From assembly GCA_045564035.1 (NCBI GenBank), contig JBJLIA010000033.1, positions 10,682-74,681 of the forward strand: a DNA stretch of 64,000 nt. The letters run 5' to 3'. Positions 55,948-63,296 of the stretch are shown here, piece after piece (the first letter of the stretch is position 1; each line of letters starts with the position of its first letter). The DNA comes from Gammaproteobacteria bacterium (GTDB lineage: Bacteria > Pseudomonadota > Gammaproteobacteria > Magnimaribacterales > D2472). The position numbers and the translations under genes are program-made. Under the pieces are notes generated by a model. It did not search any database. It worked only from the letters and a program-made list of their open reading frames with translations, and was not told where the DNA came from.

Positions 55948-56349
55948 TTAAGATTTAAAAACGTCTCTCATTGAAATAATACCAACAAGATGCTCTCCAG
56001 AGAACACCGGTAAATGTCGAATTTGATTTTCGAGCATAAGTTGTTTCGCTTCAGAGTTAGAGGTATCTGGACAAGTAAAAATTAATTTCTTTGTCATAAC
56101 ATCTTTAACAGTTTTGGATGCAAATGTTTTAGATCCACCAGACAATGCGTAAACAAAATCTCGTTCAGTTAAAATACCAACAACAGATGATTTGCATAGA
56201 TGATTCTCAGAGCCACATTTAGATATCATCAAAGCACCGATTTTATTTTTATTCATCAAAACAGCAGCTTCAAATAAATCTGAATCCTCGGGAATAGTAA
56301 AAATGTCCCAATATTTTTGTTCATTCAGATGGTCTTTCACTTTTTTCAT
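55948..56349 (-). CDS. CBS-domain pair protein
   Basis: 133 aa with two CBS repeats (GILTERD.., HLPV..LVGIISMRDV). Confidence 0.8.
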   Translation of the reverse strand: MKKVKDHLNEQKYWDIFTIPEDSDLFEAAVLMNKNKIGALMISKCGSENHLCKSSVVGILTERDFVYALSGGSKTFASKTVKDVMTKKLIFTCPDTSNSEAKQLMLENQIRHLPVFSGEHLVGIISMRDVFKS

Positions 56350-56479
56350 GATTCTTGAGCAGACAGCCTTAGCTTAAAAGTATTTATGTAAAAGATATTA
56401 ACACCCAATCTAATTTCTTGGTATCATATGCATAATTATTACGTATAATTTTTACGTATTTTTTTAACATTTTAAACAT

Positions 56480-56863
56480 TTGATCAATATGAAATCATTA
56501 AATTGCCTGATAGTTTTTCTTTTTGCATTTTTATTTGCCCTACCAGCTTTTGCTGGTGATAGGGGTTACGTTGGAGAAGAAGGGACTGAAATTGAAGTAA
56601 ATAGAGTGTCTAGCCCTTCTCCTGAATATCCAAGACGAGCTATACGACTTGGAGTCGAAGGATCGGTTCGATTAGAGTTTGATGTAGACACCGATGGCTC
56701 AGTGCTTGATCCATATGTAGTGGAAAGTAGTCCTGCAGGTGTTTTTGACAGAGCTGCAATAAAAGCAGTCAGAAAGTTCTTATATGAACCTCCAACTTAC
56801 AATGGTACTTCAGTGAAGGTAAACAACGTCCAAATCGATCTTACCTTTAAGCTAGCTAATTAA
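56480..56863 (+). CDS. Secreted TonB C-terminal-domain-only protein
   Basis: Signal peptide ..LPAFA-GD followed directly by TonB_C motifs YPRRAIRLGVEGSVRLEFDVDTDGSV and FDRAAIKAVRKFLYEP. No TM anchor or Pro-rich spacer. Confidence 0.75.
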   Translation: MINMKSLNCLIVFLFAFLFALPAFAGDRGYVGEEGTEIEVNRVSSPSPEYPRRAIRLGVEGSVRLEFDVDTDGSVLDPYVVESSPAGVFDRAAIKAVRKFLYEPPTYNGTSVKVNNVQIDLTFKLAN

Positions 56864-56892: not shown

Positions 56893-59871
56893 ATGCCTAT
56901 AAGACTCCAGTTACTATTATTTGGGGTCATTGGTAACATTCTTGTTGCTGCAATCTTTATATTTTCATTTGGTTATAGAGAAAATATTCAAGAAGACTCC
57001 TCTAATGAATCACTTTTAACGCTCTATGAATCTGCCTGGTATCAAACATACAATAAATCGTTTGATGTTATGTCAAAGTGGCTACCAGTAACTGGTGAAA
57101 ATTCATCATTCTGGGACCCAGATTCAGAAATTTTTCCTGATGAGGTTAATTCAAGTAACATTTTTACCAACCCATTACTTGATACTATTAGTGCAAACAG
57201 AATTGGTGATGCTCAATACTTAATCGAGCTGTTTTTTGAAGAAGAGCTCGATTACGGAAACTTAAGTTACGTAATGGCATATTTTCCATCAGGTGAGAGA
57301 ATCTACTGTGGAAGTGCCTTAGATCTATTGGGAGTTGATCCCTGCTCACCTTCAGCAAGACCTGAGTTCTTTAGCTATCTTGATGCCTATTTAAAAGAAG
57401 CATCAATACGACCAAGACAGTCAATTGTAAAAATTAGAGATAGAGATGAAGAGCAAGCAGCCACGCTGAATCAGGCTCTTTCATTTCCTGTAAAAGTAGA
57501 AGGTGAAACATTAGCAATTGTTAGCTTAGGCGTTGATATACGAAAAGGCCTTGAAGTTTTTGAAGACGAGTTTGAGGTAAGAACTGCAATAAATACTCAA
57601 TCTGGTTTAATTTCTTTAAATGATTATTATCAACAATTTGGCGATACAGAAGATAATTTATTTGATTTAGAAAACTTTAATAAATTAACAGATAAGGCTG
57701 CTTCTTTTAAAAAGGCAAATGGCTCAAGATATTCACAAAAAGATACCGAGCTTGGGACTTCAGTTACTCTGCTGCAACTAAGCTCCTCTCTTTCTGCGGA
57801 CGAGGCCCAACTATATGTTTTTAAAGATGAGAGAGAGAATATTCTTCGGGCAGCCAATGTTTTAAATCTCACTTATGTCGCAGCAATATCTTTTGTTATT
57901 TTTATAATCTCTTTAATCGCATTTATCACGACTCGTACATTTGGGGGCATCACAAAAGCCATTGAGGTGCTAGAAGGACTAACAAAAGGTGATCACACTC
58001 AAGAAATGCCCGTTAGAAAAGGTATCCTTGCCTCAGAGAGTGATGAGGTTGGCCAACTATCTACTGCCTTAAAATCATATAAATCGCATCTTGTTGAAAT
58101 GGAATCCATACGTGGCGAGCAAGCCAAGAGAAGACATGAGAGAGACGAGGTAATTATTGAAAAGATGTTGGCATTAGCTGATCAATTAGATGGCAGCGCA
58201 AGAACACTTATCCTGAATGATATTAAAAAAATGAAAGATCTTGCTGATAACTCTGATAGAAACTCAAGTGAGGAAGCTTCAGTAGAACTCATGTTGGTAG
58301 CTTTCTCCAGAATGTCAGATGAAGTGAACGGTTTAATTGATGCTAGAACTGGTGAAATGGAAAGTGCCCGAGATGAAGCAAGGGATGCAAGTGATCAAAA
58401 AACTAAGTTCTTTGCAAACATGAGTCATGAGCTTAGAACTCCTCTCAATGCAATCCTGGGATATGGAGAAATGCTTTATGAGGATTGTGAGGACCTTGGT
58501 TATGATGATCTATTACCAGATTTAAAGAAAATTACCTCCTCTGGATCGCATCTATTATCACTAATCAATAATATTTTAGATTTATCTAAAATTGAAGCCG
58601 GAAAAATGGAATTATTTATCACTAGTTTTGAAATTGAGAACATGATTCAAACTATAAAAGATGTTTCAGAACCATTGGCAGCTAAGAATGATAATGGTTT
58701 TGTTATCAACCTCGATGGTGCTATGGGCTCAATGTCACAAGATGAAACAAAACTAAGACAATGTCTTACTAATTTTTTAAGTAATGGATTTAAATTTACA
58801 AAAAATGGAACTGTTACTCTTGATGTTAAATCACGACTAAATGGTGATATTGAATTTATTGATTTTGCTGTAATTGATACCGGTGCAGGAATGAGTGCTG
58901 AAGGAGTTGCAAAAGTTTTCGAAGAATATACTCAAGCTGAACGATCAACATCTGCAAATTATGGTGGCACTGGATTGGGATTACCTATTTCTAAAAAGTT
59001 TGCAGAAATGATGGGTGGTGATGTTGTTGTAACAAGCGAAGAAGGAGTAGGCTCTGTATTTACTCTTTCAGTGCCTCGAGAATGCCCTGAATACAATGAA
59101 GATGAAGTTGACAGCAATGTTATTAATTTAGATGCTGATGATAATCTTGTGGTGCTTGTTGACGATGATGTTGCGATGCATGATCTAATTAAAAGAACAA
59201 TTTCTAAACTGAATTTAACACTTATTGGCGCGACGAATAGTGAAAAAGGCATGGAGTTAATTAGAGAAGTTAAACCTAAATTGATTCTGCTAGATGTCTT
59301 AATGCCTGGAAGAGATGGATGGTCATTGCTTAAAGAATGCAAGACCGACACAGAGCTTAAAGACATTCCAGTTATTATGATCAGTCAATTAAATCAATCC
59401 AATCTTGCAGCCTCTCTCGGTGCCAATGATTATTTAACAAAACCCATCGACAGAACTCATTTTGTAAATACAATTCAGAGACTTCTTGGAACAGGAGGGA
59501 AAGATCAAAAAGTTCTTGTCATTGATGATGATAAAGATGTACGGGAGTTACTCTCAAGACTCCTCAAAGATGCCGGCTATAGACCTATTGATGCCAGAGA
59601 TGGAAAAGAAGGTTTGGAGCGAACAAAAGATGAGCCTGCTTTGATTATTTTAGATCTTGAAATGCCCCGCATGGATGGTTTTGAATTTCTTGATAATTAT
59701 ATAAAGGATGTTTCTGAAGAAAAAAGAGCGCCTGTACTAGTTTTTTCTGGAAAAGACTTAACGGACGTGCAAGAAGACCTTTTAAAAGAACGAGTGGTGG
59801 GTTTAGTTAAAAAAGATGATGTATCCATGGATAATCTTTCCAAGATGATACAAGGAATAGTTCAAAAATAA
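56893..59871 (+). CDS. Hybrid sensor histidine kinase: TM - ~300-aa periplasmic domain - TM - HAMP - coiled coil - HisKA - HATPase - REC - REC
   Basis: H-box FFANMSHELRTPLNAILGY and G2 box GGTGLGLPISKKF. Two receiver domains (LVDDDV..LLDVLMPGRDG and VIDDDKD..ILDLEMPRMDG). No HPt domain seen. Confidence 0.9.
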   Translation: MPIRLQLLLFGVIGNILVAAIFIFSFGYRENIQEDSSNESLLTLYESAWYQTYNKSFDVMSKWLPVTGENSSFWDPDSEIFPDEVNSSNIFTNPLLDTISANRIGDAQYLIELFFEEELDYGNLSYVMAYFPSGERIYCGSALDLLGVDPCSPSARPEFFSYLDAYLKEASIRPRQSIVKIRDRDEEQAATLNQALSFPVKVEGETLAIVSLGVDIRKGLEVFEDEFEVRTAINTQSGLISLNDYYQQFGDTEDNLFDLENFNKLTDKAASFKKANGSRYSQKDTELGTSVTLLQLSSSLSADEAQLYVFKDERENILRAANVLNLTYVAAISFVIFIISLIAFITTRTFGGITKAIEVLEGLTKGDHTQEMPVRKGILASESDEVGQLSTALKSYKSHLVEMESIRGEQAKRRHERDEVIIEKMLALADQLDGSARTLILNDIKKMKDLADNSDRNSSEEASVELMLVAFSRMSDEVNGLIDARTGEMESARDEARDASDQKTKFFANMSHELRTPLNAILGYGEMLYEDCEDLGYDDLLPDLKKITSSGSHLLSLINNILDLSKIEAGKMELFITSFEIENMIQTIKDVSEPLAAKNDNGFVINLDGAMGSMSQDETKLRQCLTNFLSNGFKFTKNGTVTLDVKSRLNGDIEFIDFAVIDTGAGMSAEGVAKVFEEYTQAERSTSANYGGTGLGLPISKKFAEMMGGDVVVTSEEGVGSVFTLSVPRECPEYNEDEVDSNVINLDADDNLVVLVDDDVAMHDLIKRTISKLNLTLIGATNSEKGMELIREVKPKLILLDVLMPGRDGWSLLKECKTDTELKDIPVIMISQLNQSNLAASLGANDYLTKPIDRTHFVNTIQRLLGTGGKDQKVLVIDDDKDVRELLSRLLKDAGYRPIDARDGKEGLERTKDEPALIILDLEMPRMDGFEFLDNYIKDVSEEKRAPVLVFSGKDLTDVQEDLLKERVVGLVKKDDVSMDNLSKMIQGIVQK

Positions 59872-59874
59872 CTA

Positions 59875-60237
59875 CTAATTAAGCAAGGCTTCTATTTTTT
59901 CAAGCAATCGTTTGAAATCAACTGGCTTTGTATCAAAATCATCAGCCCCACATTCTAATGCTTTCTGTTTATCAGACTCTAACGCATGAGCAGTAAGTGC
60001 AATAATAGGTATAGAGCTTATTGAGTCATCAGCTTTTGCCTGAATTGTTGCTTCCCAGCCATCCAAGACTGGAAGACCCATATCCATCAAAACCAAATCA
60101 GGAGATTCACTTCGCATCATGTCTAAGCCTGCTTGGCCATCGAATGCCATAATAATTTCATAGCCTCTGCGTGAGAGCCTTCGAGATAGCATGTCTCGAT
60201 TCATTTCATTGTCCTCAACATAAAGTAATTTTGCCAT
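59875..60237 (-). CDS. Single-domain CheY/DivK-like response regulator
   Basis: 120 aa with LLYVEDNEMNRDML, DLVLMDMGLPVLDG and the TAHA..K conserved Lys region. Confidence 0.9.
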   Translation of the reverse strand: MAKLLYVEDNEMNRDMLSRRLSRRGYEIIMAFDGQAGLDMMRSESPDLVLMDMGLPVLDGWEATIQAKADDSISSIPIIALTAHALESDKQKALECGADDFDTKPVDFKRLLEKIEALLN

Positions 60238-60241
60238 TGTA

Positions 60242-61726
60242 TTAGTCTCCTGCTAACTCAGTATCAATTAATTTAAATCTATTTCTACCATCTTTTTTAG
60301 CTTCATAAAGTCTCTCATCAGCTTTGTTGGTTAAGTCAGCCGAAGTTTCAGTTTCTGTTGAAAATGCTACGCCGCCACTTGAGCTTACCTTAATATCTGT
60401 GCCGTCAAAATTAACAATATTGCTATTAATTTTCTTGATTAGCTTTTTACAAAATTCCTTTGCCTGATCAGGGTCAAGATAGAGAATCGCTAAAAATTCT
60501 TCTCCCCCTATTCTACCAACTATGTTGGGTGAAGAAATCTCTGCTTGTAACAATTGTGCAAATGATATCAAAACTGCATCCCCTCCCGCATGACCATAGT
60601 TATCATTCACTTGTTTAAAAAAATCGATGTCAAACATTATGGTCGCAAATTGACGATCTTTTGATTGCTTAGAATTATCCATGGCCTCATCTAAAGCTTC
60701 AAAAATTACACGGCGATTATAAATGCCTGTAAGCTGATCTGTGGTCGCCTGAATATGCAATTTATTTACCAGTTCTTTTTCACGCTCACGCCAAAACTTT
60801 CTTTCTAAAGCAGCCACAACTTTAGCAAGTAAAATAGTGCCATTAATAGGTTTGGGAAGATAATCTTGAGCGCCTAGTTGAATGCATTTGGAAATACTAT
60901 CAACATCGTTAAATGCTGAAACCATGATCACCGGCAAGGATTCTGCATTATGCTCTTTTCTAAAAGTTTTTAATAATTCCAGGCCATTAATATCTGGCAA
61001 TATCACATCTAACAAAATTAAATCAGGGGTTTTTTTAAAAACTTCCGTTATTGCAGTATTTCCATCATAGGCTGTTCTGCAGGTTAGCCCCTGCATGGAT
61101 AAACGCCTTTGAAGAACCTCACAATTTGTTACATTATCGTCAACAATAAGAATATCTGATTCTTTGATGTCATCGCCAAGGGTAATAGAATACTCTATAT
61201 CACCCAGAGATTTGAATAACGCTTCTGCGGATTCAAGTTGATTGGATGAATTATTATTTTTAGGATCAATTGCTTCACCGCGAATATAATCAACAAAGTT
61301 TTCTATTGCTTTTTCAGTATCTCTTGCAAGATTTATAATTTGTTGAAAATCTTCTAAAGTGCCTTTTCCAATATCATCTTCATAATCTTCCATTAAAATT
61401 TCACTATAACCAATGATTGCGTTTAAGGGAGTTCTTAAATTATGACGGAGTTCTGAATATTCTTCTGGTGATTTCTTGGCTGAGTCTGCATTCACGCCAG
61501 TATTTTGCACAAAAGCAACCTCGTACTGATCAATTAATTTAGAACAAGATGATTTAATTTGCTCAATTTCATCGTCGGATTGAAGATCTGCCTCATCAAG
61601 AACTTTTTCAACCATATCTACATAATCAAATATGGCATTGGCGGGTGTAATAAAATCTTGTTTGATTTGGGTGAGAATAATCTCCTCTGCTCCTTTGGAT
61701 GTTTTTTTTGGAATAAGCTTATCCAT
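60242..61726 (-). CDS. Diguanylate cyclase with N-terminal DHp(HisKA)-like helices (no ATPase domain) - REC - GGDEF
   Basis: H-box-like ELRHNLRTPLNAIIGYSEIL preceded by a degenerate copy IKQDFITPANAIFDYVDMV. REC (ILIVDDN..ILLDVILPDINGLE). GGDEF domain with GGEEF. No RxxD I-site 5 residues upstream. Confidence 0.85.
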   Translation of the reverse strand: MDKLIPKKTSKGAEEIILTQIKQDFITPANAIFDYVDMVEKVLDEADLQSDDEIEQIKSSCSKLIDQYEVAFVQNTGVNADSAKKSPEEYSELRHNLRTPLNAIIGYSEILMEDYEDDIGKGTLEDFQQIINLARDTEKAIENFVDYIRGEAIDPKNNNSSNQLESAEALFKSLGDIEYSITLGDDIKESDILIVDDNVTNCEVLQRRLSMQGLTCRTAYDGNTAITEVFKKTPDLILLDVILPDINGLELLKTFRKEHNAESLPVIMVSAFNDVDSISKCIQLGAQDYLPKPINGTILLAKVVAALERKFWREREKELVNKLHIQATTDQLTGIYNRRVIFEALDEAMDNSKQSKDRQFATIMFDIDFFKQVNDNYGHAGGDAVLISFAQLLQAEISSPNIVGRIGGEEFLAILYLDPDQAKEFCKKLIKKINSNIVNFDGTDIKVSSSGGVAFSTETETSADLTNKADERLYEAKKDGRNRFKLIDTELAGD

Positions 61727-61728
61727 AA

Positions 61729-62823
61729 TTAAGTTTCCTTAGTTTTAAATGAATCCAAAAAATCAGGTCGATGCATTAAATAACCTTGACCAATTTTACA
61801 ACCTAGATCTAGCATCATTTTTTTATCATCTTCAGTCTCTATACCCTCACCTATCATTTCTAATTCAAGATCTTCACAAACTTCTGAAACAAAGCTTATA
61901 AGCCTTGCAGTGGATGGGTCGGAAACATTAAAAGTGAAATGTTTATCCAATTTAACAACATCAATAGGCAGGTCTCTGACGTATTTTAACGATGCATAAC
62001 CAGCACCAAAGTCATCCAAGGCAATTTTAATTCCTTTGTGTTTCAAAAGACGTAAAGATTGGGAGGCAATGTTAATATCTTGTAACTCTGCAGTTTCTGT
62101 AACTTCAAGACCGAGTTGATTGGGGGCAAGCTTATGTTTTTCTATAAAGTCTGTAAATATTGAGCAAAACTCTGGATGCATTATCGTATGCGCCGAAACA
62201 TTCAAGTAAAGTGTTGCGTTCTTAAATCCTATTTTTTCTTTTATGGCAAAGAATTTTTCTAACTGAACTAATGACTCTAAAACAACCAAAGAAAATAAAC
62301 TCTCTCCCTCTATTTGAGGAATTATTTGATCATTTGCTAAATAACCACCCTTGCCATCTTGGAGCCTGAGAAGAGCTTCAATCCCAGTAACTTCATTTGT
62401 TTCAAGGTTTACTTGTTTCTGATAAGCCAATTCAATGCGTTTGTACTCTATACAATCAATAGTTTTCCTCAAAGCATCAAGACCTGACCTGGAAGAGCAT
62501 AATAATTCAATTAACATAATACCCTTAGATACATCAACAGGAATCATGTGAACTCTCGTTCGCATGAAAAAATTAATTTCTCTTAAAGAAATCTCTATAG
62601 GAGTATCATAATAAAGAGCAATAGAATCTAAATCACCAAAATTACTAGTAACTTTTTCATCAATTTTGATAACAGAGAGCTCATCCAATGAGTTCAAATT
62701 GAAGATATAATTTGCAGCAATATTTGCCCATGCAATGGAACCATCAAGTTCATAAATAATGTAGGGACTGGGGTGATGTTGCAAAGACTTTGTTAAGTAA
62801 TTAAGCTCTTGATCAGTATCCAT
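61729..62823 (-). CDS. c-di-GMP phosphodiesterase: N-terminal PAS-like region + EAL domain
   Basis: EAL catalytic set visible: GIEALLR, NVS, EVTE, DDFGAGYAS, KLDK, EGIE, GQGY. Confidence 0.85.
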   Translation of the reverse strand: MDTDQELNYLTKSLQHHPSPYIIYELDGSIAWANIAANYIFNLNSLDELSVIKIDEKVTSNFGDLDSIALYYDTPIEISLREINFFMRTRVHMIPVDVSKGIMLIELLCSSRSGLDALRKTIDCIEYKRIELAYQKQVNLETNEVTGIEALLRLQDGKGGYLANDQIIPQIEGESLFSLVVLESLVQLEKFFAIKEKIGFKNATLYLNVSAHTIMHPEFCSIFTDFIEKHKLAPNQLGLEVTETAELQDINIASQSLRLLKHKGIKIALDDFGAGYASLKYVRDLPIDVVKLDKHFTFNVSDPSTARLISFVSEVCEDLELEMIGEGIETEDDKKMMLDLGCKIGQGYLMHRPDFLDSFKTKET

Positions 62824-62828
62824 CTTTG

Positions 62829-63296
62829 TTAGCCGTATAATTTACTTTGTTTAATTTGTTCATCGACAAGCTCGACAAAATCTTCTGCAAATGTAATTTT
62901 TATAAATTCCCATATTTCAAGATGCTTTGGCTCCTTAAAGAGTGTTTTGAATGATACTAGCATTGCGTTCCATTCCTCCTCATCCAACATCCCAATTTTA
63001 AATTGATAAAATTGATTTTCACGAGCTCTTAGCATCACACTAAAATATGTTAAGTATACTGCGTTTTCTTCTTTGGTTAGTTCTTCGTTATTTCTCAGTT
63101 TTATCTTCGTATCTACAAGAATGGGTTTCATCCCCGCAAGGGCAACTTTCTGATGAGAATCAGCAATATTTTGTCTTGCATTCGCTCGCGCAACTCTGTT
63201 TTGCTCTCTCAATTCAGTCACCAAAAAATAGACTGTAACAAGCACTGTAAATGGTCCAACAGTTTGGAGAATTAATATGATTGTTTCAAAATTCAC
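62829..63296 (-). CDS. N-terminally anchored membrane protein, function unknown; first gene of the c-di-GMP operon
   Basis: 155 aa with a single N-terminal TM segment (IILILQTVGPFTVLVTVYFLV), then a helical soluble part. 5 nt upstream of the EAL gene. Confidence 0.5.
   Translation of the reverse strand: MNFETIILILQTVGPFTVLVTVYFLVTELREQNRVARANARQNIADSHQKVALAGMKPILVDTKIKLRNNEELTKEENAVYLTYFSVMLRARENQFYQFKIGMLDEEEWNAMLVSFKTLFKEPKHLEIWEFIKITFAEDFVELVDEQIKQSKLYG

What the first reader, a model, noticed from the sequence alone, without database searches (positions are those of the whole stretch)
59875..63296. c-di-GMP operon whose cyclase carries a kinase-less DHp (HisKA) module: possible built-in Spo0B/ChpT-like phosphotransfer step for the HPt-less hybrid kinase next door
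Seen in sequence:
- Four minus-strand genes have 5-, 2- and 4-nt gaps: TM protein, PAS-like-EAL (all catalytic EAL motifs present), DHp-REC-GGDEF (GGEEF, no RxxD I-site), and a single-domain CheY/DivK-like regulator.
- The cyclase N-terminus has an intact H-box (ELRHNLRTPLNAIIGYSEIL) but no HATPase domain.
- That H-box is preceded by a degenerate second copy in which His is replaced by Gln (IKQDFITPANAIFDYVDMV).
- The convergent 992-aa hybrid kinase (56893..59871) has HisKA-HATPase-REC-REC but no HPt domain.

Established knowledge: His-Asp-His-Asp relays need a histidine phosphotransferase. Spo0B and ChpT are DHp-derived phosphotransferases lacking kinase activity.

Inference:
- The ATPase-less DHp of the cyclase could accept phosphate from a receiver of the hybrid kinase and pass it to its own REC or to the CheY-like protein.
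- This would couple an unknown periplasmic signal to c-di-GMP synthesis, opposed by the co-encoded EAL enzyme.
- Such a dedicated circuit stands out in a genome otherwise devoid of regulators in this window.
Basis: partly seen in the sequence, partly recalled or inferred. Interest (0 to 1): 0.6.

Follow-up and report, generated by a model that had tools for sequence, protein, structure and literature searches.

The report
Kinase-less tandem DHp relay cyclase
A c-di-GMP cyclase of the marine bacterium SAR86 starts with two back-to-back copies of the histidine-carrying helical module of sensor kinases, without the ATP-binding part; this module recurs across bacteria beside the same HPt-less hybrid kinase and small receiver protein, so it probably supplies the missing histidine step of a phosphorelay.

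Summary
In detail: all genes, gaps, motifs and domains are as described, and the window comes from SAR86.

- **Structure.** Residues 11-149 of the cyclase are two tandem DHp hairpins, not one. The first has a Q-box (Gln23 at the His position) and the second an H-box (His95). AlphaFold2 packs them into one single-chain four-helix bundle. This is a pseudo-dimer with one histidine, so it resembles an HPt domain in shape and Spo0B/ChpT in origin.
- **Distribution.** The module is not peculiar to SAR86. An exhaustive profile search finds it in front of REC-GGDEF, REC-adenylate cyclase, REC-PP2C and REC-kinase proteins.
- **His retention.** In 113 tandem pairs, 111 keep at least one His and 56 keep exactly one.
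- **Gene neighbourhood.** In 12 of 13 independent neighbourhoods the gene sits next to one highly conserved single-domain receiver (58-74% identical). In 9 of 13 it sits next to one family of hybrid kinases. All six of those read in full have two receivers and no HPt.

Best reading (about 0.55): HHK to receiver(s) to His95 to Asp240 of the cyclase, which makes c-di-GMP, opposed by the EAL enzyme. No phosphotransfer was shown. A tethered phosphatase role remains the main rival.

I found no paper describing this module. I rate it a new variant of a known kind.

The parts
62829..63296 (-). TM155: 155-aa protein with one N-terminal membrane helix; first gene of the minus-strand operon; no known family
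   Evidence: ORF. No Pfam hit at E<=1. Hydrophobic window at residues 3-25. Detected in most of the 80 loci, absent from some. A 41%-identical homologue lies in the same neighbourhood in an unrelated contig (L096:8036-8497).
61729..62823 (-). EAL phosphodiesterase (364 aa): EAL domain at residues 125-353 with all catalytic motifs; N-terminal 124 residues unassigned
   Evidence: Pfam EAL 170.8 bits. Motifs EAL149, DDFG270 and others read from the sequence. An EAL gene also neighbours the GGDEF-type relatives in L095 and L096.
60242..61726 (-). Diguanylate cyclase (494 aa): tandem kinase-less DHp bundle, flexible tether, REC, stalk helix, GGDEF (GGEEF 407-411)
   Evidence: Pfam HisKA + Response_reg + GGDEF, no HATPase_c. 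AlphaFold2 full length pLDDT 81.8. Best solved match is DgcR 6zxb, E 2e-22, then WspR and PleD.
61499..61696 (-). DHp hairpin 1 (residues 11-76): 'Q-box' QIKQ(D/E)F..PA.AI, with Gln23 (nt 61658-61660) at the position of the phospho-His
   Evidence: Helices 11-45 and 51-76 with pLDDT >90. hhalign against hairpin 2 gives local P 2.2e-4 with Gln23 aligned to His95. The profile hits ChpT (E 0.23) and HK853 (E about 1) in the same register. In distant relatives the Q-box is plainly HisKA-like, e.g. NLRQELLAPVTAIVGYGEMLHEE.
61280..61468 (-). DHp hairpin 2 (residues 87-149): H-box LRHNLRTPLNAIIGYSEIL, with His95 (nt 61442-61444) and Thr99
   Evidence: Pfam HisKA 33.1 bits. PDB phmmer hits HK853/EnvZ DHp. 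His95 is invariant in 77 full-length sequences (the window plus 76 orthologues). 36% identical to the DHp of the neighbouring hybrid kinase, E 1e-8.
60818..61153 (-). Receiver domain of the cyclase (residues 192-303): Asp196/197, Asp240 (nt 61007-61009), Ser270, Lys292
   Evidence: Pfam Response_reg 95.7 bits. Residues located. It is the most conserved part of the protein across SAR86 (mean column conservation 0.87).
60278..60748 (-). GGDEF catalytic domain (residues 327-483), GGEEF, no RxxD I-site
   Evidence: Pfam GGDEF 134.3 bits. NCBIfam DgcR 178 bits over residues 190-483.
59875..60237 (-). Single-domain DivK/CheY-like receiver (120 aa): Asp52 (nt 60082-60084), Thr82, Lys104; last gene of the operon
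   Evidence: Pfam Response_reg only. 61-72% identical to the single-domain receivers found beside tandem-DHp genes in unrelated contigs.
56893..59871 (+). Hybrid histidine kinase (992 aa): two TM helices (about 3-27 and 320-345) around a roughly 290-aa periplasmic domain, HisKA 502-570 (His512), HATPase_c 617-729, REC1 753-861 (Asp801), REC2 872-985 (Asp921); no HPt
   Evidence: Pfam (no Hpt at E<=1). Residues and hydrophobic windows. Same dual-REC HPt-less architecture and H-box in the kinases beside five unrelated relatives; 45% identical to the L096 kinase over the core.
56480..56863 (+). Secreted TonB_C-only protein (127 aa, signal peptide), 29 nt upstream of the hybrid kinase; possible periplasmic co-sensor (SAR86-specific addition)
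   Evidence: Pfam TonB_C 74.7 bits. Detected next to the kinase in nearly every one of the 80 loci whose contig reaches that far. Promoter-like site at 56398-56427 (not above chance).

Best explanation
This is a c-di-GMP signalling cassette wired as a multi-step phosphorelay. The His-phosphotransfer step is built into the cyclase.

**Shown.**
- A minus-strand operon encodes TM155, an intact EAL phosphodiesterase, a DgcR-like REC-stalk-GGDEF cyclase with an N-terminal kinase-less DHp module, and a single-domain receiver.
- It converges on a TonB_C + hybrid-kinase operon. That kinase has two receivers and no HPt.

**Predicted.** Residues 11-149 of the cyclase are two tandem DHp hairpins: a Q-box with Gln23 and an H-box with His95. 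They fold into one single-chain four-helix bundle that copies a DHp dimer but carries a single histidine. A roughly 40-residue flexible linker tethers it to the receiver.

**Inferred.**
1. The membrane kinase autophosphorylates on His512 in response to a periplasmic cue.
2. It passes the phosphoryl group to a receiver Asp: its own Asp801 or Asp921, and/or Asp52 of the diffusible CheY-like protein.
3. His95 of the cyclase takes the phosphoryl group from that receiver.
4. His95 hands it to Asp240 of the cyclase's own receiver.
5. Asp240 phosphorylation rearranges the REC/stalk dimer as in DgcR/WspR and switches on c-di-GMP synthesis.
6. The co-encoded EAL enzyme opposes this.

Because every step is reversible, the same bundle can also drain Asp240~P back to the CheY-like protein when the kinase is off. 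Whether the shuttle is the kinase's own receiver (CckA-ChpT logic) or the CheY-like protein (Spo0F-Spo0B or SdrG-PhyT logic) is left open.
For: **Architecture.**
- Genes and domains are confirmed. There is no HATPase_c or Hpt in the cyclase or the kinase at E<=1.
- Only about 40 residues lie between helix 4 and the receiver, so no hidden CA domain fits.

**Tandem DHp.**
- AlphaFold2 of residues 1-191 gives four helices with pLDDT >90 and pTM 0.70.
- Foldseek matches only single-chain up-down four-helix bundles.
- The Q-box aligns to the H-box with Gln on His (hhalign P 2.2e-4), and to the His of ChpT and HK853.
- In relatives the two boxes sit a median of 72 residues apart (range 62-80). Multi-unit proteins repeat the pair, not the single hairpin.

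**Selection on the His.**
- His95 and Gln23 are invariant in 77 full-length sequences (the window plus 76 orthologues). The H-box hairpin (0.83) and receiver (0.87) are more conserved than the GGDEF domain (0.67).
- Of 113 tandem pairs: 55 H-H, 28 H-x, 21 Q-H, 7 x-H and only 2 without His.

**Partnership.**
- The module precedes REC-GGDEF, REC-class III cyclase, REC-PP2C and REC-GAF-kinase proteins, always without a neighbouring HATPase.
- In 12 of 13 neighbourhoods a 120-124-aa receiver lies adjacent. These receivers are 58-74% identical to each other and 61-72% identical to the SAR86 protein.
- In 9 of 13 neighbourhoods a hybrid kinase is adjacent. All six read in full are HisKA-HATPase-REC-REC with the same H-box and no Hpt at E<=1.
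- Two GGDEF-type relatives, 39-42% identical to the window cyclase, repeat the SAR86 layout: EAL, cyclase, CheY, convergent kinase.

**Shared recognition surfaces.**
- The cyclase DHp is 36% identical to the kinase DHp. It has the same residues at H+7, +8, +11 and +12 (sequences).
- Helix 1 of the CheY-like receiver (NEMNRDMLSRRL) resembles that of the cyclase receiver (NVTNCEVLQRRL) more than those of the kinase receivers.

**Output.** Residues 190-483 are DgcR-like (NCBIfam 178 bits; 6zxb E 2e-22), with stalk helix 296-328.

**Precedent.** DHp-type phosphotransferases fed by a receiver are established: ChpT (PMC9981736) and PhyT with the single-domain receiver SdrG (PMC5898713).
Against: - No phosphotransfer was measured. 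Everything about function rests on association and conservation.
- The bundle is an AlphaFold2 monomer prediction from a shallow, closely related alignment. Coordinates and PAE were not available to me. A monomer run cannot exclude a domain-swapped dimer.
- The full-length model gives no confident docking of the bundle on the receiver (pTM 0.45).
- Hairpin 1's similarity to DHp is weak in SAR86 itself (E 0.1-1).
- The retained Thr99 (H+4) is the HisKA phosphatase residue (summarised in 10.64898/2026.02.27.708494). It fits a phosphatase role equally well.
- Whether SAR86 encodes an HPt elsewhere was not tested.
- The 13 neighbourhoods are a convenience sample. Several lie on short contigs, and four show no kinase.
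- Tethered receivers on the kinase could be mere sinks, with direct His512-to-Asp240 transfer.
Confidence: 0.55

Rival explanations
1. Tethered phosphatase or sink. The kinase phosphorylates Asp240 of the cyclase (and the CheY-like protein) directly. The kinase-less DHp bundle acts in cis as the phosphatase half of a bifunctional HisKA kinase, shortening the life of Asp240~P so that c-di-GMP synthesis tracks the signal closely.
For: - The H-box keeps the HisKA phosphatase residue Thr at H+4 (HNLRT). The acidic H+1 residue needed for autokinase chemistry is Asn in more than 90% of the sampled SAR86 fragments (rule summarised in 10.64898/2026.02.27.708494).
- Galperin et al. raise exactly this possibility for HATPase-less HisKA proteins (PMC5847659).
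- PhyT was first taken for a phosphatase (PMC5898713).
- The flexible 40-residue tether would give a high local concentration.
Against: - Phosphatase activity of DHp domains does not strictly need the His. Yet 111 of 113 pairs keep at least one His, and the loss pattern is 'one may go, not both'.
- It does not explain why the cassette pairs with HPt-less dual-receiver kinases and a highly conserved free receiver.
- Most relatives keep Asp/Glu at H+1.
- The two roles are not exclusive.
Confidence: 0.2
2. Same phosphotransfer function, but with the first reader's architecture. The H-box hairpin homodimerises like Spo0B/ChpT. The Q-box hairpin is a separate accessory coiled coil or forms a domain-swapped eight-helix assembly, which also provides the dimer that the GGDEF domains need.
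For: - Every DHp domain I know of with a solved structure is a dimer (my own knowledge); DgcR-like cyclases work as dimers (PMC8041772, abstract).
- AlphaFold2 was run on a monomer only, so intermolecular packing could not appear.
Against: - pTM 0.70 with four helices above pLDDT 90 in one chain.
- A 10-residue link between helices 2 and 3 and the alternating down-up-down-up order fit an intramolecular bundle.
- The constant 62-80-residue spacing, the repetition of pairs as units, and the relaxed selection on one His of each pair are what a pseudo-dimer predicts.
Confidence: 0.15
3. Split kinase. The CA domain of the neighbouring hybrid kinase phosphorylates His95 of the cyclase directly from ATP, as CheA P4 phosphorylates P1 or CheA4 phosphorylates CheA3. 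No receiver intermediate is involved.
For: - The cyclase DHp is a close paralogue of the kinase DHp (36% identity, same H-box family).
- Most relatives keep an acidic H+1 residue.
Against: - In SAR86, H+1 is Asn, which disfavours ATP-dependent phosphorylation.
- It leaves the kinase's two receivers and the conserved free receiver without a role.
- I know of no precedent for a HisKA CA domain acting on a foreign single-chain bundle (my own knowledge).
Confidence: 0.07
4. Inert scaffold. The helical bundle is a docking or localisation domain, for example binding the kinase or the CheY-like protein. His95 is conserved for structural reasons and is never phosphorylated.
For: - Degenerate DHp-like domains serve as interaction modules elsewhere (DivL; PMC12471899).
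- No chemistry was demonstrated here.
Against: - The full H-box (H..RTPLNAI.GY.E) is conserved at the level of active kinases.
- His is kept in 98% of pairs, while the equivalent position in the partner hairpin drifts freely to Q, Y, F, R, A or L.
Confidence: 0.08

Closest known systems
ChpT of the CckA-ChpT-CtrA/CpdR relay, and Spo0B of the Bacillus sporulation relay (DHp-derived histidine phosphotransferases)
   Same: - A HisKA/DHp-type helical hairpin with an H-box His but no kinase activity.
- It is placed between a receiver Asp and a terminal receiver Asp.
- The partner hybrid kinase lacks an HPt.
- Hairpin 1 even gives its best, though weak, PDB hit to the ChpT H-box in register.
   Different: - ChpT and Spo0B are free-standing homodimers that keep a degenerate CA-like alpha/beta domain.
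- Here there is no CA remnant. The bundle is predicted to be made by two tandem hairpins of one chain with a single His. It is fused to the terminal response regulator.
- No Pfam match to the Spo0B or ChpT families.
Pak-SdrG-PhyT-PhyR relay of Sphingomonas (PMC5898713)
   Same: - A single-domain receiver encoded with the system shuttles phosphate from kinases to a kinase-like DHp phosphotransferase, which passes it to the receiver of the output protein.
- The phosphotransferase also behaves as a negative regulator.
- This matches the constant pairing of the tandem DHp module with one conserved free receiver.
   Different: - PhyT is a membrane-bound protein with a conserved His that was formerly taken for a phosphatase (PMC5898713); its domain make-up was not read here. 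It is separate from PhyR, and its output is an anti-anti-sigma factor.
- Here the module belongs to the HisKA family, is soluble, is fused to its target, and drives nucleotide cyclases.
HPt domains (Pfam Hpt, e.g. ArcB C-terminus, Ypd1, ShpA)
   Same: - Predicted to be a monomeric up-down four-helix bundle with one solvent-exposed phospho-accepting His.
- It serves HPt-less hybrid kinases.
   Different: - No sequence relationship: no Hpt hit at E<=1.
- The His sits in a HisKA H-box on the third helix of a duplicated hairpin.
- It would be an independent, DHp-derived route to the same solution.
DgcR / WspR / PleD (receiver-regulated diguanylate cyclases)
   Same: - Residues 190-494: REC with Asp/Ser/Lys, a long alpha5-stalk helix and GGEEF.
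- Best solved match is DgcR 6zxb (E 2e-22, 31% identity), then WspR and PleD.
   Different: - Those enzymes are phosphorylated directly by a kinase or HPt and have no N-terminal DHp.
- This one lacks the RxxD I-site.
'Non-enzymatic HK-like proteins' / incomplete histidine kinases lacking HATPase_c (Galperin et al. 2018, PMC5847659; P2CS 'iHK' class, 10.64898/2026.02.27.708494)
   Same: HisKA without HATPase_c. The literature already speculates that such proteins accept or transfer phosphate, or act as phosphatases.
   Different: Those are census categories without a defined architecture, partners or mechanism. The tandem Q/H pair, the fusion to REC-output and the three-gene cassette are not described in any paper I could find.

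Membership tests
DHp-type histidine phosphotransferase (Spo0B/ChpT/PhyT class) | DHp helical hairpin carrying a conserved H-box histidine | tested here: met
   Pfam HisKA 33.1 bits over residues 93-147. His95 invariant in 77 full-length sequences, the window plus 76 orthologues.
DHp-type histidine phosphotransferase (Spo0B/ChpT/PhyT class) | No functional ATP-binding domain | tested here: met
   No HATPase_c at E<=1. Only about 40 residues lie between helix 4 and the receiver.
DHp-type histidine phosphotransferase (Spo0B/ChpT/PhyT class) | Homodimeric four-helix bundle plus a degenerate CA-like alpha/beta domain | tested here: not met
   No CA remnant. The bundle is predicted to form within one chain from two tandem hairpins. 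Oligomeric state was not measured.
DHp-type histidine phosphotransferase (Spo0B/ChpT/PhyT class) | Sequence membership in the Spo0B or ChpT families | tested here: not met
   No Pfam hit to either family. Only weak PDB hits of hairpin 1 to ChpT 4fmt (E 0.095-0.23).
DHp-type histidine phosphotransferase (Spo0B/ChpT/PhyT class) | Reversible phosphotransfer receiver-Asp to His to receiver-Asp | not testable with these tools
   Needs in vitro phosphotransfer. Only genomic association supports it.
HPt domain (Pfam Hpt) | Match to the Hpt profile with the HxxKG-type motif | tested here: not met
   No Hpt hit at E<=1 in the cyclase, the kinase or the five neighbouring kinases of relatives.
HPt domain (Pfam Hpt) | Monomeric four-helix bundle with an exposed His | tested here: inconclusive
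Canonical HisKA histidine kinase (for the cyclase) | HATPase_c catalytic domain after the DHp | tested here: not met
   Absent.
Receiver-regulated diguanylate cyclase (DgcR/WspR/PleD) | Receiver with phospho-acceptor Asp, Ser/Thr and Lys | tested here: met
   Asp240, Ser270 and Lys292.
Receiver-regulated diguanylate cyclase (DgcR/WspR/PleD) | GG(D/E)EF active site and helical stalk between REC and GGDEF | tested here: met
   GGEEF 407-411. Helix 296-328. DgcR 6zxb E 2e-22. NCBIfam DgcR 178 bits, below the 500-bit equivalog cut-off, so it is a relative, not an orthologue.
Hybrid histidine kinase without HPt (for the 992-aa protein) | HisKA + HATPase_c + receiver(s), no Hpt | tested here: met
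   His512, Asp801 and Asp921 present.
EAL c-di-GMP phosphodiesterase | EAL domain with the catalytic residue set | tested here: met
   Pfam 170.8 bits. EAL, N, E, DDFG, K, E and Q motifs read in the sequence. Activity was not tested.

The most novel reading that the evidence does not exclude
The tandem kinase-less DHp pair would be an independently evolved, single-chain equivalent of the HPt domain, made by duplicating the DHp hairpin of a hybrid-kinase family and discarding the CA domain.

It would define a widespread, uncharacterised phosphorelay cassette with three parts:
- a dual-receiver hybrid kinase;
- a DivK-like shuttle receiver;
- a DHp2-REC-output protein.

This cassette feeds c-di-GMP, cAMP/cGMP, PP2C and secondary-kinase outputs in many phyla.

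It would explain how a class of 'orphan' HPt-less hybrid kinases reaches its targets. In genome-streamlined SAR86 it would be a core, perhaps the principal, two-component circuit.
Probability: 0.45. Interest if true: 0.78.

Novelty: new variant of a known kind. Interest (0 to 1): 0.68.

Why it matters
**Missing phosphotransferases.** Hybrid kinases that lack an HPt domain need a histidine phosphotransferase from elsewhere (PMC12471899), and which one serves a given hybrid kinase is often unknown. If the tandem DHp bundle is that phosphotransferase, a whole class of proteins now labelled 'response regulator', 'adenylate cyclase' or 'histidine kinase' gains a defined role. These include hundreds of 50%-identity clusters among the best hits alone.

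**Fold evolution.** A DHp dimer collapsing into one chain and then needing only one His would be a neat case of convergent evolution toward HPt.

**SAR86 biology.** SAR86 is a marine lineage known here only from single-cell and metagenome-assembled genomes. The cassette is detected in all 80 best-matching species genomes, as far as their contigs reach. This circuit, from an unknown periplasmic cue to c-di-GMP, is therefore likely one of its few ways of sensing the outside world.

**Testability.** The prediction can be tested directly with four purified proteins.

Tried and rejected
**Hidden HATPase or HPt in either protein.** None at E<=1.

**Structural identification of the bundle as HPt or DHp.**
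- Foldseek/PDB gave only generic four-helix bundles.

**Reading a DHp-receiver docking pose from the full-length model.** pTM 0.45 and a disordered tether give no information.

**Reaching relatives outside SAR86.**
- The word-indexed protein search with the full-length cyclase returned only >=93% identical SAR86 copies.
- The genome scan kept loci nearly all labelled SAR86.
- The exhaustive profile search was what reached other lineages.

**Literature.** Nine searches for tandem or kinase-less DHp, HisKA-REC-GGDEF, SAR86 two-component systems and HPt-less relays found no description of this module.

**FATGUY motif.** I considered that REC2 of the kinase carries the FATGUY motif of shuttle receivers (PMC9981736). 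Only Ser-Gly matches (VFSGKD), so I dropped this.

**Simple dimerisation handle for the cyclase.** Rejected as the main role, because the REC-stalk part already resembles the constitutive DgcR dimer, and because His is retained in 98% of pairs.

**Not attempted.**
- Annotation of the other ~55 genes of the window, to test 'devoid of regulators'.
- An HPt census of whole SAR86 genomes.

Full report
**1. What is in the window**

One search confirms four tightly packed minus-strand genes:
- TM155, 62829-63296
- an EAL protein, 61729-62823
- a 494-aa cyclase, 60242-61726
- a 120-aa receiver, 59875-60237

The gaps between them are 5, 2 and 4 nt. A 992-aa gene on the plus strand (56893-59871) converges on them, and the two stop codons lie 3 nt apart. 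A 127-aa gene (56480-56863) lies 29 nt upstream of the 992-aa gene.

Pfam assigns the domains as follows:

| Protein | Domains |
|---|---|
| Cyclase | HisKA 93-147 (33.1 bits, above the 26.9 cut-off), Response_reg 192-303, GGDEF 327-483 |
| EAL protein | EAL 125-353 |
| 120-aa protein | Response_reg only |
| 992-aa protein | HisKA, HATPase_c and two Response_reg domains |
| 127-aa protein | TonB_C |

- No HATPase_c or Hpt appears in the cyclase at E<=1, and no Hpt appears in the kinase.
- The N-terminal 124 residues of the EAL protein match nothing, so 'PAS-like' stays unconfirmed.
- The kinase has two hydrophobic segments (about 3-27 and 320-345) around a periplasmic domain of roughly 290 residues.

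**2. Organism and conservation**

- Homologues carry SAR86 names.
- A scan of one genome per GTDB species returned 80 loci, nearly all labelled SAR86.
- These loci show the order TM155-EAL-cyclase-CheY, convergent with HHK-TonB_C, as far as each contig extends, at 44-99% protein identity.
- The receiver is the most conserved gene (77-97%).
- In 77 full-length sequences (the window plus 76 orthologues), His95 and Gln23 are invariant.
- The H-box hairpin (mean column conservation 0.83) and the receiver (0.87) are better conserved than the GGDEF domain (0.67).

**3. The N-terminus is a tandem DHp**

- AlphaFold2 on residues 1-191 gives four long helices (11-45, 51-76, 87-114, 121-149). Most have pLDDT >90, and pTM is 0.70 even though about 50 residues are disordered.
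- Foldseek against the PDB returns only single-chain up-down four-helix bundles, none significant. The model is therefore a compact bundle, but the search cannot name it.
- A profile-profile comparison of the two hairpins aligns QIKQDFITPANAIFDYVDMV on SELRHNLRTPLNAIIGYSEIL, with Gln23 on His95 (local P 2.2e-4).
- A profile of hairpin 1 gives its best PDB hits to the H-box of ChpT (E 0.23) and HK853 (E about 1), again with Gln at the His position.
- On its own this is weak. The relatives settle it (section 4).
- The helix order is down-up-down-up, with a 10-residue link between helices 2 and 3. This reproduces the geometry of a DHp homodimer within one chain.
- The full-length model (pLDDT 81.8, pTM 0.45) keeps the bundle. 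It shows a disordered tether (152-180) and a receiver whose last helix runs on as a stalk (296-328) into the GGDEF domain.
- The best solved matches are DgcR (6zxb, E 2e-22), WspR and PleD. NCBIfam agrees (DgcR 178 bits).

**4. The module is widespread**

An exhaustive profile search with the N-terminal module hits ordinary kinases through the H-box. Among the best 150, many proteins match both hairpins at their N-terminus. Sequences and Pfam show one architecture:
- one to four [box-hairpin + box-hairpin] pairs;
- then a receiver;
- then an output: GGDEF, class III nucleotide cyclase, PP2C/SpoIIE, GAF-kinase, a full kinase core, and others.

There is never an HATPase next to the N-terminal DHp. 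In these proteins the first box is unmistakably HisKA-like, for example NLRQELLAPVTAIVGYGEMLHEE.

I located every box with an iterated local HMM and read the residue at the His column. There are 113 pairs, with spacing of median 72 residues (range 62-80):

| Pair type | Count |
|---|---|
| H-H | 55 |
| H-x | 28 |
| Q-H | 21 |
| x-H | 7 |
| No His | 2 |

So 98% keep at least one His, and half keep exactly one. This is what is expected if each pair forms one bundle in which a single phospho-acceptor suffices. It is hard to reconcile with a purely structural role. In multi-unit proteins such as P0226, the repeat unit is the pair, and longer linkers separate the pairs.

**5. Constant partners**

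I looked up the neighbourhoods of twelve relatives. With SAR86 this makes 13 contexts.

*The free receiver.*
- A 120-124-aa single-domain receiver is adjacent in 12 of the 13 contexts.
- These receivers are 58-74% identical to each other and 61-72% identical to the SAR86 protein.
- The DHp modules they accompany diverge far more: GGDEF-type relatives are 39-42% identical overall, and boxes differ widely.

*The hybrid kinase.*
- A hybrid kinase is adjacent in 9 of the 13 contexts. Most of the other contexts lie on short contigs.
- All six that could be read in full are HisKA-HATPase-REC-REC.
- They share the H-box FLANMSHELRTPLNA(I/V)IGYSE(M/L)L; the SAR86 kinase reads FFANMSHELRTPLNAILGYGEML.
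- None has Hpt at E<=1.

*GGDEF-type relatives.* Two of them (L095, from an assembly labelled Rhizobiales TMED83, and L096) repeat the SAR86 layout of EAL, cyclase, CheY and convergent kinase.
- L096 also has a TM155 homologue (41% identity).
- L095 has a weak PilZ gene beside the EAL gene.

*Shared recognition surfaces.*
- The cyclase DHp is 36% identical to the DHp of its neighbouring kinase (E 1e-8).
- It shares that kinase's residues at H+7, +8, +11 and +12.
- Helix 1 of the free receiver and of the cyclase receiver are alike (NEMNRDMLSRRL and NVTNCEVLQRRL).
- This is as expected if both receivers dock on the same DHp surfaces.

**6. Mechanism**

*Shown:* gene order, domains, motifs, conservation and co-occurrence.

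*Predicted:* the single-chain bundle and the DgcR-like output.

*Inferred:* His512 to a receiver Asp (Asp801/Asp921 of the kinase and/or Asp52 of the free receiver), then to His95, then to Asp240, then c-di-GMP synthesis, opposed by the EAL enzyme.

The precedents are CckA-ChpT-CtrA (PMC9981736), Spo0F-Spo0B-Spo0A, and especially Pak-SdrG-PhyT-PhyR. In the last, a free receiver feeds a kinase-like phosphotransferase that had first been taken for a phosphatase (PMC5898713).

The main rival is a tethered phosphatase.
- Thr99 at H+4 is the HisKA phosphatase residue.
- The Asn at H+1 in SAR86 removes the residue needed for autokinase chemistry (rule summarised in 10.64898/2026.02.27.708494).
- Galperin et al. 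raise both possibilities for HATPase-less HisKA proteins (PMC5847659).

The two roles are compatible. The His-retention pattern and the HPt-less partners make me favour transfer.

**7. Known or new**

- The C-terminal two-thirds of the cyclase is an ordinary receiver-regulated cyclase.
- The kinase is an ordinary hybrid kinase.
- Kinase-less HisKA proteins are a recognised census category.

What I could not find in nine literature searches or in a 2025 review (PMC12471899) is any of the following:
- the tandem Q/H (or H/x) DHp pair;
- its fusion to REC-output proteins;
- the three-gene cassette.

It fails two defining features of the Spo0B/ChpT class (homodimer, CA remnant) and the sequence test for HPt. 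I therefore file it as working like those, but as a new variant, not a member.

**8. Limits**

- No biochemistry was done.
- The AlphaFold2 alignment is shallow, and no coordinates or PAE were available.
- No multimer prediction was possible.
- The neighbourhood sample is small and partly on short contigs.
- Taxonomic labels of metagenomic bins are unreliable. Loci labelled SAR92 or Rhodobiaceae are syntenic with SAR86.
- The HPt content of whole SAR86 genomes and the regulator content of the rest of the window were not examined.

Noticed in passing
window 56480-56863 (+): A 127-aa secreted protein consisting only of a signal peptide and a TonB_C domain lies 29 nt upstream of the hybrid kinase. 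It keeps that position in nearly every one of the 80 loci whose contig reaches that far. Relatives outside SAR86 have other genes there, for example a periplasmic binding protein in L083. It may couple the kinase's periplasmic domain to the state of TonB-dependent transporters.
   Followed up: partly
window 59871-59875; L096:3912-3915: The convergent kinase and CheY genes end 3 nt apart, with no terminator-like site between them. In L096 the same two genes overlap by 4 nt. Transcripts from the two operons must run into each other.
   Followed up: partly
window 61187-61231 (cyclase residues 166-180): The tether between the bundle and the receiver holds a short motif AE(A/S)LFKSLG..(E/D)Y. Glu168, Leu170, Phe171 and Leu174 are invariant even in relatives only 39-42% identical overall. 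It is predicted as a helix with low confidence. Its role is unexplained; it may be a docking or autoinhibitory element.
   Followed up: no
window 62829-63296 (-); L096:8036-8497: TM155 has one membrane helix and matches no Pfam family. It has a 41%-identical homologue two genes beyond the kinase in an unrelated contig, so it may belong to the cassette.
   Followed up: partly
L095:7833-8150: In the TMED83-labelled relative, a 105-aa protein with a weak PilZ match lies next to the EAL gene. It is a candidate c-di-GMP receptor for the cassette. No PilZ was seen in the SAR86 operon.
   Followed up: no
window 59506-59847 (kinase REC2) and the REC2 of L083, L089, L091, L092 and L096 kinases: In the second receiver of all these kinases, the conserved beta5 Lys is followed by Gly, Ser, Lys or Asp (QKG, EKS, VKK, TKD) instead of the usual Pro. 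The beta4 motif is (S/T)AKD or FSG(K/L)(D/E). This is an atypical receiver class of unknown meaning.
   Followed up: partly
P0226, P0228, P0229 (L086-L088, L094): Some adenylate cyclases carry two to four consecutive DHp pairs before the receiver. Each pair usually has one His. This amounts to several HPt-like stations in one protein.
   Followed up: partly
L092:10916-17073: One contig holds a whole cluster: hybrid kinase, CheY-like receiver, REC-cyclase and HisKA-REC-SpoIIE. Next to it lies a tandem-DHp-REC-GAF-PAS-cyclase gene. This suggests that several outputs share one kinase and one shuttle.
   Followed up: no
window 55948-56349 (-): A 133-aa CBS-pair protein is a conserved neighbour of the TonB_C gene in most of the 80 loci. 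No link to the cassette was examined.
   Followed up: no
P0023, P0031, P0045, P0047, P0079 and others: Many metagenomic protein fragments end in ...LSLIHI(SEPTRR). This looks like translated sequencing-adapter sequence at contig ends, so it is an artefact to trim before building alignments.
   Followed up: no
L022, L057 (labelled SAR92); L043 (labelled Rhodobiaceae): These loci are fully syntenic with SAR86 loci and 61-87% identical to them. The bin labels are probably wrong.
   Followed up: no
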